Of a stretch of DNA of 64,000 bases, positions 27,001 to 30,000 are shown in pieces. Made by a program: the position numbers. Origin of the DNA: Ginglymostoma cirratum (Eukaryota); contig JAHRHZ010000053.1 of assembly GCA_024137785.1 (NCBI GenBank), forward strand, positions 5,737,806 to 5,801,805, read 5' to 3'. The first letter of the stretch is position 1. Each line of letters starts with the position of its first letter.

Positions 27001-30000
27001 TCAAATTAGACCCTGTGTACAAATCAGTGAGAAACAGAACCTGAAGTAATACCAACCACCCCAGCAAACTGAGGCATATAAATAACAAGTGGAACAGATC
27101 ACCGACGCTTCACCGGAGCCGCACTGACGACGTTACCTAGCAGGGTGACAAAACATCTGCAACCAAACACACCGGCTCAGCGAGCAAGTCTACAACCTCA
27201 TCCACAACCCGAGTAGATCTTCTCGAAAACTTCATTTGTCCTGTTTTGCTCACATATTCAGCGTTTCAAAATTTCCTTTAACCCTCTTCATGTCCTTCTC
27301 ACATTCTCACCAAGTTTTGAATTGTCGTCAGACTTGGAAATATTACAAAAGATCCCCACATCCCAGCTTATAAAGCGTTAAAGCCCAAGCACTGATCCTT
27401 GTGGTCACCGGACACAACTGACCAACCTGAGAAAGACCCATTTATTTATTTGAGATAGCAAGATGTAGAGCTGGACGAACACAGCAGGCCAGACAGCACC
27501 AGAGGAGCAGGAAAGCTGATGTTTCGGCTCTGGACCCTTCTTCAGAAATTATTCAAAGTACAATCTTACCATTGTTCAATGAAATTGAAGCAAAATGGTT
27601 TTGCTCCTGTACTCAAATCTTGATGTGATAATTTCTGAAAAAGGGTCCAGACCCAAAATGTCAGCTTTCCCTCTCCTCTGATGCAGCCTGGTCTGCTGTG
27701 TTCATCCAAATCTACACCATGTTAGCCCATTTCTTTATTTGTTTTCTGTTTGTTCTCAATCTTTAAGGTTTTGGAGTAGCTCAGTAGCTCGGGTTGTGGG
27801 TGTTGAGGTTGGTTGGCTCGCCGAGCTGGTTTGTTGTTCCGCAGACGTTTCATTATTGTGCTTGGTAACATCCTCAGTGCAGCCTCTGATGAAGCATCGG
27901 TGTGTTTTCCTGCCTGGTTTCTGAACTCTAGGGTCCGTTGCGATGGATTGCCTCACTTCCGGGTTTCCTCCGTAGTGGAATGTATATGGGGTCGAATTCA
28001 ATGTGTTTATTAATAGCATGCTTCGTGGAGTGCCATGCTTCCAGGAATTCTCGTGCTTGTCTCTGCCTAGCCTGTCCCAGGATCTTGGTGTTGTCCCAGT
28101 CGAAGTCGTGGTTCTCCTTNNNNNNNNNNNNNNNNNNNNNNNNNNNNNNNNNNNNNNNNNNNNNNNNNNNNNNNNNNNNNNNNNNNNNNNNNNNNNNNNN
28201 NNNNNNNNNNNNNNNNNNNTGTAGTGCTTCTCGCAGTCTCTGCAGGGGATCTTGTAGATGACATTGTCCATGGTGGGGAGTGGGTCTTTAGTTCGGGTGA
28301 GCACTTGCTGTAGGGTTGATGTGGGCTTGTGAGCCACTCTGATGCCCAGCAGTCGTAGAAGTCTTGTGGTGAGTTCTGACGTGTTCCTGAAGTAGGGTAG
28401 TGTGATGAGTGTGTCGGGACATGTAGAATCTTTCTGATGCTGTTCCTGTAGGCATCTCCTGACCCAGTTCTTTGGATATCCATTATCCTTGAACACTTGG
28501 AAGTGGTATTCCTCCTCCTCTTGGCGTAGTCCCATGTTGCTGCAGTGTGTTGTTGCCCTTTTAAGTAGTGTGTGCATGCAGCTTCGTTTGTGTGTGCTGG
28601 GATGGTTACTATTGAAGTTCAGTACCTGGTCTGCATGTGTGGTTTCTCGGTGTACTTTCGTTTGCAGTTCATATTTGTCTTGCGCTCTACCATGACGTCC
28701 AGGAATGGGAGTTGACGGTTCTTCTTCTCCTCTCTGGTGAATTTTATTCCGGTGAGGGTGTTGTTTCTGAGTTTGTGTGTCTCTTCTAATTTGGTCCGTT
28801 TAATGATGACAAAGGTGTCATCTATGTAGCGTATCCATAGTTTAGGTTGGATTTGCAGAAGGGCAGTCCTTTCCAGTCTTTGCATCACTGCTTCTGCTAT
28901 GAGTCTGGAGATAGGCGATCCCATGGGTGTTCTCAATTTACAAATCATGCTTCTATATAACCCCGATTCACACATGCTTTAATTTTGTTTTAAGTCTTGA
29001 AAAAGAAATGAAACTCCCAGCCCATTTATTTCCCTTTTTTTTAAACATATTTTTTCCTTTTGATTTTGTTTACCACTGTTTTACTATGTTTACCTGCTCT
29101 GTCCCTTCCTGTCCCACTCTCGGTATTGTTAGTCAAATAGCTGCCCTGTGATGCTGCTATAACTTTTTGTTTTGTATGTTTAAATTTCTTCTGTCCCAAA
29201 TCCTCCTCCCCCTCATTGGTTTTAAGCCCTTTCTATGGCCCTTGTTATTTGATTCACCAGGTTTCTAGTCCCAGCGCAATTCAAGTGAACCCCATGCTAC
29301 CAGAACACGTTCCTTCTACCCCAGTCCTGCTGCTGGTGTACCACAAACTGAAACCCATTCGTCCCACTCCAATCGTTGAGCCACACGTTTAACTCCTGTA
29401 CTTTATTTACCTTATGCTAGCCTGACTGCAGCTGCAGCAGTAGCCCAAACATTATTACCTTAGAAGTTCTGCCTTGTAATTTAATTCCGAATTGTTCAAA
29501 ATCTTTCAGCAGAACTTCCTTTCTAGTCTGACAATGCTATTGGCACCAACATGGATCCCTCCCCCTCCAAGTTCTTCTCCAGCCCAAAGAGGGTTTTGTT
29601 AACCATGGTGCGGGACAGGCAACACAGTCTTCATAACTTCTGCTCATGGCTAGAGAGCACAGTATCTATTTCCCCAAATTATACTGTCCCTTCCCAGAAC
29701 TGCATTCCAGTTTCCTTCCAGCAACTCAGACTCCAGTTCCTCAACTCAGATCTGAATTTCCTTGAGCTGCGAGCACTTCGAATACTACAAATATGTTCAC
29801 TCTTGATTACATTGACGTCAAGCAGTTTCCACATGTTGCAGCAACAACACATCACTCATCCTGCCACCACCATGTTATTTCATTTAATTTATAAATTAAT
29901 TACTCAAGTCTTAGCTTGTTATACTTTACTGTAATAATATTTCACTTTTGTAACATTTAAAAGAGAAAATCATAAGTATCAATGTCACATTTAAGAAAAG

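What the first reader, a model, noticed from the sequence alone, without database searches (positions are those of the whole stretch)
27549..27631. Hairpin mini-element has captured 83 bp of neighbouring genomic DNA as its loop
Seen: the spacer between the two inverted arms matches 26194-26276 (75/83 identical by my count, same orientation, ~1.35 kb upstream; only ~0.5-0.6 kb if the Penelope at 26459-27232 arrived later). The donor is a heavily diverged old CR1 copy and the spacer seems to share its idiosyncratic sequence, arguing for this local copy as template. The whole arm-spacer-arm unit lies inside one 16-bp TSD. Inference: during insertion two cDNAs, one from each target end and both stopping just past the ribozyme core, were bridged by synthesis templated on nearby chromosomal DNA or its transcript. 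That would be a mechanism for local micro-duplication flanked by ribozyme-bearing inverted repeats.
Basis: partly seen in the sequence, partly recalled or inferred. Interest (0 to 1): 0.72.

Follow-up and report, generated by a model that had tools for sequence, protein, structure and literature searches.

The report
Retroelement hairpin with locally copied filler
An old, dead hairpin-shaped insertion of a small Penelope-type retroelement carries about 80 bases between its two arms that were most likely copied from the decayed LINE next door; it is a rare by-product of a known kind, not a new mechanism.

Summary
27549-27631 matches 26194-26276 at 75 of 83 bases on the same strand (E 1e-28 within the window). 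It sits between two inverted arms, and one 16-bp target-site duplication (15/16) encloses the whole unit.

The arms are tail-less, full-length copies of a ~100-135-nt mini-element. Its anatomy is that published for Penelope-like elements (PLEs): variable duplications, head-to-head inverted copies, a ~35-nt tail on one arm, and a minimal hammerhead-like motif.

The donor lies in register inside an old LINE open reading frame on the minus strand. The spacer is the same LINE piece out of register, so copying ran donor to spacer. The spacer shares two premature stops and other degenerate states with the donor. It is 90% identical to the donor but only 39-52% identical to four other LINE copies in the window. 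The neighbouring dead copy is therefore the likely template.

A genome-wide search was not possible. Two alternatives remain open: a mobile composite or a paralogous donor elsewhere, and filler added later during repair of the palindrome centre.

Both-strand priming by a PLE protein, host DNA captured between PLE repeats, and L1 insertions with locally templated DNA are all in print. This is a single instance of a known kind. Interest is low to moderate.

The parts
27437..27452 (.). Left copy of the 16-bp target-site duplication
   Evidence: 15/16 identical to 27726-27741. Chance of this at a fixed placement is 2e-8.
27453..27552 (-). Left arm. Mini-element sense is on the minus strand. It runs from the tail-less start site (outer end) to the family's regular 5' end (inner end). 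A mutated minimal hammerhead-like core lies at 27518-27545.
   Evidence: Aligned with 9 other arms of the family. 82-88% identical to other copies. 7 arm-specific substitutions.
27549..27631 (+). Filler. It is a copy of LINE sequence in the same orientation as the donor, which is antisense to the LINE. 27553-27627 is unambiguous; 4 nt at each end overlap the inverted repeat and may be microhomology.
   Evidence: 75/83 identical to 26194-26276, E 1e-28. In the LINE frame it aligns to P0001 residues 792-808, E 0.01. That is out of register with its flanks, which align to residues 646-665.
27628..27725 (+). Right arm. Mini-element sense is on the plus strand. It is tail-less. A mutated hammerhead-like core lies at 27635-27662.
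   Evidence: It carries 11 arm-specific substitutions. It shares 4-5 private variants with the left arm.
27726..27741 (.). Right copy of the target-site duplication
26194..26276 (-). Donor segment. It lies in register inside the old LINE ORF2 remnant and corresponds to P0001 residues about 786-813.
   Evidence: 26152-26457 (minus strand, stops read as X) aligns to P0001 721-819 at E 4e-17.
25950..27436 (-). Decayed LINE copy (endonuclease+RT type) that holds both the donor and the hairpin's target site. The Penelope-like insert interrupts it. Its ends are approximate.
   Evidence: Colinear matches to P0001: 27380-27452 to residues 646-665; 27234-27434 to 659-694, E 5e-4; 26152-26457 to 721-819; 26049-26210 to 831-856, E 6e-9. 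P0001 carries Exo_endo_phos and RVT_1 domains.
26459..27232 (.). Two-armed Penelope-like fragment lying between the donor and the hairpin. It is flanked by a 7-bp duplication, CATTTGT, at 26452-26458 and 27233-27239.
   Evidence: Duplication is 7/7. Open frames on opposite strands are listed. 66-73% similar to other Penelope-like pieces at 27768-28415 and 10103-10283. Pfam gave no significant family for its two frames. The Penelope label rests on recalled GIY-YIG-type motifs.

Best explanation
A short non-autonomous retroelement of the Penelope-like (PLE) kind inserted into an already dead LINE copy. The insertion was primed on both strands of a 16-bp staggered cut. Each 3' end started reverse transcription at the inner, tail-less start site. 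Each cDNA ran to the 5' end of the ~100-nt template, giving two full-length arms head to head.

The two cDNA ends did not join directly. One of them paired through 1-4 nt of microhomology with the same LINE copy about 0.4 kb away (about 1.2 kb today). It copied about 80 nt from that DNA or from a transcript of it. It then paired with the other cDNA end, again through 1-4 nt, and the gap was sealed.

The enzyme could be the element's reverse transcriptase switching templates, or a host end-joining polymerase.

Shown: the anatomy, the direction of copying, and the shared decay with the neighbour.
Inferred: both-strand priming, the time of bridging, and the enzyme.

My odds: about 0.8 that the neighbouring LINE copy is the template. 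Given that, about 0.65 that the copying happened during insertion.
For: (1) One insertion event:
- A single 15/16 duplication encloses arm, filler and arm.
- The two arms share 4-5 variants that other copies lack.

(2) PLE-type anatomy in this family:
- Duplications of 10-16 bp at 5 of the 7 copies; the sixth is 11/14, and none was found at 45007.
- In the alignment of 11 arms, 6 have a ~35-nt tail and 5 do not.
- In the other two-armed copies, only one arm carries the tail.
- Copies are head-to-head inverted.
- An intact CTGANGA..GAAACGTC motif occurs at 2937-2964, with 0.00 matches expected by chance.
- These features match published PLE traits (PMC8557442 passages; PMC4209133 passages).
- A purified PLE protein cleaves and extends both strands and starts at two adjacent internal sites whose interval is the tail (PMC11167929).

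(3) Direction of copying:
- The donor is in register within the LINE ORF.
- The filler is the same LINE piece placed next to residues about 646.

(4) Local template:
- The filler is 90% identical to the donor, against 52, 45, 40 and 39% to the four other LINE copies in the window.
- Read in the LINE frame, donor and filler share two stop codons, and the replacements at P0001 positions 803, 809, 810 and 811. P0001 and the window copy at 43 kb agree with each other at 803, 804, 809, 811 and 813 (they differ at 810).

(5) Junctions: each overlaps the arm ends by up to 4 nt.
Against: - No genome was available. The filler could match another locus as well or better.
- Filler and donor differ at 8/83 (9.6%), but the arms differ at 18/98 (18.4%). 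The difference is not significant (Fisher p 0.14), but it leans towards a filler younger than the arms.
- The hairpin cores at 1256-1393 and 2873-3010 are 96% complementary over 138 nt with the same inner breakpoint. Two-armed units may therefore propagate as units, and an arm-filler-arm unit might do the same.
- This copy has no tail on either arm, unlike the other four two-armed copies.
- About 80 nt copied from 0.4 kb or more away is longer and farther than the usual polymerase-theta insertion. This figure is recalled, not checked.
- One of the three donor stops in the segment is not shared by the filler.
- The stop at position 804 may be a recurrent CpG change. That is my reading of the codon and was not tested.
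Confidence: 0.52

Rival explanations
1. Later repair. The element first inserted as a near-perfect palindrome with abutting arms, as in other copies. The centre later broke, and end joining filled it with a stretch copied from the nearby LINE.
For: - The three other assessable two-armed copies of the family have 0-4 nt at the centre.
- Filler-donor divergence (9.6%) is about half of arm-arm divergence (18.4%).
- Long palindromes are fragile (established knowledge).
Against: - The divergence difference is not significant (p 0.14). 3 of the 18 arm differences are at the two CpG sites of the arms, by my reading.
- Both arms are intact to the family's regular 5' end, whereas breakage and resection usually remove bases.
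Confidence: 0.2
2. Mobile composite or paralogous donor. The arm-filler-arm unit was made elsewhere and retrotransposed here as a unit, or the template was a duplicate of this LINE copy elsewhere. On this view the closeness of a matching LINE copy is coincidence.
For: - The hairpin cores at 1256-1393 and 2873-3010 look like inherited units.
- PLEs are reported to move unrelated sequences framed by their terminal repeats (PMC3846280 passages).
Against: - It requires a copy sharing the private stops and 90% identity to lie within 1.4 kb by chance, when four other LINE copies in 64 kb are at most 52% identical.
- The unit has no tail, a feature described as optional but reported as needed for endonuclease recognition in Drosophila virilis (PMC11167929).
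Confidence: 0.12
3. Template switch to the RNA of an active LINE. The reverse transcriptase jumped from the mini-element RNA to an abundant LINE transcript, and the match to the neighbour is only family resemblance.
For: - Template jumping between RNAs is known for retroelement reverse transcriptases (listing only).
- L1 insertions built from two RNAs are reported (PMC11702581 passage).
Against: - The filler carries two in-frame stops and several replacements at conserved positions. All of them are shared with the dead neighbour.
- An active LINE could not carry them.
Confidence: 0.03
4. Assembly artefact at a hairpin.
For: - PLE inverted structures are said to upset assemblies (PMC8557442 passage).
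- Another two-armed copy has an N run at its centre, 51162-51561.
Against: - The filler differs from the donor at 8 of 83 positions, and the arms from each other at 18 of 98.
- A misjoin of reads would be identical to its source.
Confidence: 0.02

Closest known systems
Complex inverted insertions of Penelope-like elements, with a one-sided 30-40-bp tail (Craig et al. 2021, PMC8557442; Frangieh et al. 2024, PMC11167929)
   Same: - Head-to-head inverted 5'-truncated copies inside one variable-length duplication.
- Two alternative outer ends about 35 nt apart.
- A minimal hammerhead-like motif about 100 nt from the end.
- Target sites containing ATT.
   Different: - Here the unit is only about 100-135 nt, and no matching autonomous element is present in the window.
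- This copy has no tail on either arm.
- Foreign DNA sits at the head-to-head junction.
Unrelated host sequences captured between solo PLE terminal repeats and surrounded by target-site duplications, and host-DNA spacers in Pen1, in the rotifer Adineta vaga (Arkhipova et al. 2013, PMC3846280; passages read)
   Same: Non-element DNA framed by PLE terminal sequences within one duplication. The authors explain it by template jumps or self-priming during the unusual PLE replication.
   Different: - The passages I read give no source for the captured DNA.
- Here the source can be traced to the same LINE copy 0.4-1.2 kb away.
- The capture is short (about 80 nt) and lies between inverted arms.
[quoted passage not shown] 2024 preprint, PMC11702581; passages read, Fig. 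S10 not held)
   Same: A retroelement insertion whose junction contains a copy of nearby chromosomal DNA. The authors attribute it to end processing or DNA-templated synthesis before ligation.
   Different: - A different element class and enzyme.
- L1 normally primes one strand only.
- I could not see the sizes and distances in their cases.
L1 twin priming and the proposed dual priming (Srikanta et al. 2010, PMC2837659, passages; Ostertag and Kazazian 2001, seen only as a reference)
   Same: Both target 3' ends prime reverse transcription. The internal junction is then resolved by end joining, sometimes with filler DNA.
   Different: - Twin priming inverts a different, more 5' part of one RNA.
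- Here both arms are the same segment, which matches dual priming.
Polymerase-theta templated insertions and T-DNA filler DNA (search listings only; details recalled)
   Same: Junction filler copied from sequence in cis, with short microhomology at both ends.
   Different: - Typical insertions are shorter and are templated closer to the break (recalled).
- No enzyme can be assigned from sequence.

Membership tests
PLE-type insertion (non-autonomous derivative) | Variable-length target-site duplication around the whole unit | tested here: met
   - 15/16 over 16 bp for this copy.
- Other copies: 14/14, 13/14, 12/14, 10/10 and 11/14.
- None was found at 45007.

PLE-type insertion (non-autonomous derivative) | Adjacent inverted 5'-truncated copy, head to head | tested here: met
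   Arms of 102 nt, 81% complementary. 5 two-armed copies of the family lie in the window.
PLE-type insertion (non-autonomous derivative) | Optional 30-40-bp tail at one end of the unit | tested here: inconclusive
   Family: 6 of 11 aligned arms carry a ~35-nt tail, and in two-armed copies only one arm has it. This copy has no tail on either arm.
PLE-type insertion (non-autonomous derivative) | Similarity to the terminal region of an autonomous PLE encoding RT and GIY-YIG | tested here: not met
   The arms have no blastn hit at E<=1 to the Penelope-like fragments at 26459-27232 or 27768-29000. A partner elsewhere in the genome could not be searched for.
Hammerhead ribozyme (minimal, PLE type) | CUGANGA core, stem II with an unpaired 5' nucleotide, GAAA, a cleavage triplet, and a palindromic stub in place of helix III | tested here: inconclusive
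   - The pattern is intact once in the family, at 2937-2964.
- My reading against the descriptor in PMC4209133 fits.
- Both cores in this copy are mutated.
- Rfam gives no hammerhead at gathering score or at E<=10.
- Cleavage cannot be tested here.
   Four colinear matches to P0001, which carries Exo_endo_phos and RVT_1.
   The only hints are recalled C-terminal motifs and a weak hit to an unnamed turtle protein, P0004. Pfam gave nothing for the short fragments.
Templated-insertion junction (end joining or template switch) | Filler matches a sequence in cis, with microhomology at both junctions | tested here: met
   90% match at 1.35 kb on the same strand. Up to 4 nt are shared between arm ends and donor at each side, of which 1-2 nt are certain.
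L1-style twin priming | The inverted part is a different, more 5' segment of the same RNA | tested here: not met
   Both arms cover the same segment end to end.
Inverted-repeat DNA transposon (MITE or foldback) | Duplication of fixed length, and terminal inverted repeats at both ends of every copy | tested here: not met
   Duplications range from 10 to 16 bp. Single-armed copies and one-sided tails exist.

The most novel reading that the evidence does not exclude
Bridging of the two cDNAs of a both-strand-primed PLE insertion by synthesis on nearby chromosomal DNA is a regular, if minor, outcome of PLE integration. Genomes rich in these hairpin elements would then carry many short local duplications framed by hammerhead-bearing inverted repeats. 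The distance and strand of the donors would report how the integration intermediate is resolved.
Probability: 0.12. Interest if true: 0.55.

Novelty: new member of a known kind. Interest (0 to 1): 0.3.

Why it matters
How PLE insertions are completed after both strands are primed is still open. Frangieh et al. 2024 (PMC11167929) say the later steps are not yet validated. A junction that records a detour through DNA a few hundred bases away is a natural footprint of that step. If many such footprints exist, a genome-wide census could show three things: whether the two cDNA ends search in cis, over what range, and with what microhomology. As a single old copy, this one is an anecdote with no sign of any function.

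Tried and rejected
- Rfam over the whole window at gathering score gave 0 matches. At E<=10 on 27350-27850 and 1200-3100 it gave only generic hairpin-type microRNA matches and no hammerhead.
- Two protein searches with the donor's own decayed frames found nothing. The third, with a better LINE frame at 43265-43618, gave P0001.
- Pfam on 8 short frames gave nothing significant for the LINE or the Penelope fragment. RVT_1 matched 28619-28978 at E 1.4e-5, below its cut-off.
- I considered that the arms might be the 3' untranslated end of the LINE itself, because an arm-like stretch follows a LINE frame at 39.1 kb. I rejected this. That stretch is an insert with its own 10/10 duplication, and the LINE resumes after it.
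- Two independent single-arm insertions flanking a resident LINE piece: rejected. There is one duplication around the whole unit, none at the inner ends, and the filler is out of register with the LINE at that site.
- The right flank 27726-27800 could not be matched to P0001 by blastp-short. Continuity of the LINE to the right of the hairpin rests on my reading only.
- The relative age of the Penelope-like insert and the hairpin could not be settled. The insert's frames have no stops in about 200 codons, which is only a weak hint that it is younger.
- Not checked: any search of the source genome (none is held), the closed collections, and the supplementary figures of PMC11702581 and PMC11167929.
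Full report
**Observation**

The match is real.
- The repeat finder gives a direct repeat 26188-26276 / 27543-27631 (89 nt, 89%). It also gives inverted arms 27451-27552 / 27628-27729 (102 nt, 81% complementary, 75 nt apart).
- blastn within the window gives 27549-27631 vs 26194-26276 at 90.4% over 83 ungapped bases, E 1.1e-28. The spacer's next best hit is 16 nt at E 0.15.
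- There are 8 mismatches, 5 of them transitions.
- The unit is enclosed by a 16-bp duplication, 27437-27452 and 27726-27741, matching at 15 of 16. The chance of this at a fixed placement is 2e-8.
- The last 4 nt at each end of the 83-nt match also belong to the inverted repeat. The unambiguous filler is therefore 27553-27627.
- As single-stranded DNA, 27453-27725 folds at -76.2 kcal/mol, z = -12.
- The copies differ at 8 positions, so this is not an assembly duplication.

**The arms**

The arm sequence is a repeat family with 7 copies in the window.
- Five copies are two-armed: about 1257-1428, 2873-3041, 27453-27725, 51072-51655 and 61243-61373.
- Two copies are single-armed: about 45007-45144 and 39105-39222.

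Aligned in one orientation, the unit runs from a fixed 5' end, 3-5 nt before a CTGAAGA box. It ends either at an inner site or about 35 nt further on, at a tail. Of the 11 aligned arms, 6 have the tail and 5 do not. In the four other two-armed copies only one arm has it.

The four long arms all end within 2 nt of one another at the inner end. The arms of the finding are therefore full-length copies, not cDNAs that stopped just past the ribozyme.

Duplications for the other copies are 14/14, 13/14, 12/14, 10/10 and 11/14. None was found at 45007.

The two arms of the finding differ at 18 of 98 aligned positions. Judged against the other copies, 7 changes are on the left arm and 11 on the right. 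The arms share 4-5 variants that the other copies lack. This fits one source and one event.

**What kind of element**

These traits are the published signature of Penelope-like elements:
- strong 5' truncation;
- an inverted 5'-truncated copy abutting the main copy;
- a 30-40-bp tail, often at one end only (PMC8557442, passages).

[quoted passage not shown] It starts reverse transcription at two adjacent internal sites, and the tail is the stretch between them. It prefers to cut at 5'-ATT-3' (PMC11167929, main text read).

The family also carries a motif that I read as a minimal PLE-type hammerhead: a CUGAAGA core, one unpaired A, a 4-bp stem II, GAAAC, then GUC with no helix III. This fits the descriptor of Cervera and de la Pena (PMC4209133, passages). 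The intact pattern occurs once, at 2937-2964, against 0.00 expected. Both cores in the finding's copy are mutated.

Rfam reports no hammerhead at gathering score or at E<=10. The ribozyme label is therefore a reading, not a test.

The arms show no similarity to the two Penelope-like fragments beside them. The autonomous partner, if any, is not in the window.

PLEs are reported to be absent from mammals (PMC8557442). I do not take this window for human.

**The donor**

A 966-residue LINE ORF2 with Exo_endo_phos and RVT_1 domains (P0001) was found with a better-preserved LINE frame at 43265-43618. It serves as a ruler. On the minus strand:

| Window region | P0001 residues | E-value |
|---|---|---|
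| 27380-27452 (left flank of the hairpin) | 646-657 | 0.033 |
| 27380-27452 (left flank of the hairpin) | 659-665 | 6e-4 |
| 27234-27434 | 659-694 | 5e-4 |
| 26152-27457 read as 26152-26457 | 721-819 | 4e-17 |
| 26049-26210 | 831-856 | 6e-9 |

One old LINE copy therefore runs from the hairpin's target site down through the donor. It is interrupted at 26459-27232 by a two-armed Penelope-like fragment with its own 7-bp duplication.

The donor (residues about 786-813) is in register. The filler reads as residues 792-808 (E 0.01) but sits next to residue about 646. Copying therefore ran from donor to filler.

Whether the LINE is CR1 in the strict sense was not tested.

**Is the neighbour the template?**

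In the LINE frame the donor reads GVIT*GFEYRSKAILLQLH*TTVRLYFD*C. The filler reads EIITSRFEYRSKTILLQFH*TMVRLYFE*F.

P0001 and the window copy at 43 kb agree with each other at positions 803, 804, 809, 811 and 813, reading Y, R, P, L and Y. The copy at 61 kb agrees with them at 803, 804 and 813. At all five positions, donor and filler share the same deviant states: H, stop, L, F and stop. An active LINE cannot carry stops, so the template was a dead copy with the neighbour's own lesions.

At the DNA level the filler is 90% identical to the donor. It is 52, 45, 40 and 39% identical to the four other LINE copies in the window, which are themselves 31-52% alike.

There are limits to this evidence:
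- One donor stop is not shared by the filler.
- The stop at 804 may be a recurrent CpG change.
- Four comparators in 64 kb are few.

**Timing**

If the filler was made at insertion, filler-donor divergence should equal arm-arm divergence. The observed values are 8/83 against 18/98 (Fisher p 0.14). By my reading, three of the arm differences are at the arms' two CpG sites. The data fit one event but lean towards a younger filler.

Start to start, the donor is 1355 bp away. Without the Penelope-like insert and its duplication, the distance is 574 bp, and the gap from donor end to target is about 380 bp. The order of the two insertions could not be settled.

**Mechanism**

The left arm's cDNA is the plus strand, primed by the 3' end of the left duplication copy. 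The right arm's cDNA is the minus strand, primed from the right copy. Both started at the inner start site, and both reached the template's 5' end.

The two ends have the same sequence, so they cannot pair beyond about 2 nt.

If the left cDNA made the detour, its template was the LINE-sense strand or a LINE-sense transcript. If the right cDNA made it, the template was the opposite strand. The sequence does not tell which.

The arm ends and the donor share up to 4 nt at each junction, of which 1-2 nt are certain.

**Other hairpins**

Foreign filler is not common in this sample.
- Of the four other two-armed copies of the family, three have 0-4 nt at the centre. One centre is an N run and was left unfilled.
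- The between-arm stretches of five other hairpins matched only their own families or nothing: 1298-1355, 2912-2967, 8788-8821, 50472-50506 and 63864-63897.

**Comparison with what is known**

- Arkhipova et al. 2013 report unrelated sequences captured between solo PLE terminal repeats and surrounded by duplications, and host-DNA spacers in one family. They propose self-priming and template jumps (PMC3846280, passages).
- Mendez-Dorantes et al. [quoted passage not shown] Their Fig. S10 was not available to me.
- Srikanta et al. 2010 proposed dual priming and mention filler DNA (PMC2837659, passages).
- My search for PLE together with filler, templated or template-switch terms listed no paper describing a cis-templated filler in a PLE insertion. 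Apart from PMC3846280, that search was read as a listing only.

This finding is one more case of a known kind. The useful extra is that the source can be traced to the same LINE copy a few hundred bases away.

Noticed in passing
window 51072-51655 (N run 51162-51561): Another long-armed copy of the same mini-element, with a 13/14 duplication, has an assembly gap exactly at its centre. Its arms are 100% complementary over the 57 nt that can be compared. The gap was left unfilled, so whether it holds filler is unknown.
   Followed up: partly
window 1256-1393 and 2873-3010: Two copies have hairpin cores that are 96% complementary over 138 nt with the same inner breakpoint, but the ~35-nt tail is on the long arm in one and on the short arm in the other. 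This suggests that the hairpin core is inherited as a unit and that the tail can sit at either end.
   Followed up: partly
window 61243-61373: This copy has a long arm that turns back on itself at the stem II palindrome of the hammerhead-like motif (4-nt loop), followed by only 18 nt of second arm. It looks like snap-back self-priming rather than priming from the second target end. Its duplication is weak (11/14).
   Followed up: partly
window 39105-39222, inside the LINE copy 38579-39380: A diverged single-armed relative of the mini-element (about 70% identical) is inserted near the end of another LINE reading frame, with a perfect 10-bp duplication. Its stem II differs from the main family in a way that keeps the pairing, by my reading.
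   Followed up: partly
window 8710-8900, 48777-48950, 50362-50611, 63783-63977: At least four more hairpin-shaped repeats of related but distinct families lie here. Their arms are 38-105 nt and 79-95% complementary. Some show a similar GTTAACGTTT..GGGTC stretch. Hairpin mini-elements are frequent in this window.
   Followed up: partly
window 26459-27232: In this Penelope-like fragment the left arm holds the first half of the endonuclease region and the right arm holds the rest plus the 3' end. The outer 28 nt of the left arm are 86% complementary to 27180-27207, about 25 nt short of the right end. This may be the same tail-less start site, followed by an internal jump.
   Followed up: no
window 27756-28978, minus strand (N run 28120-28219): A longer Penelope-like copy begins about 30 nt to the right of the hairpin. 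It has an RT frame (RVT_1 at E 1.4e-5, below the Pfam cut-off). Three PLE-type insertions therefore lie within 2.6 kb of one old LINE.
   Followed up: partly
protein P0001 (database record), matched by window 43265-43618: A 966-residue animal-type LINE ORF2 is filed under a bacterial species name on a 3-kb contig. It is 59% identical to a LINE frame of this window. It is probably host DNA carried over into that bacterial record.
   Followed up: no
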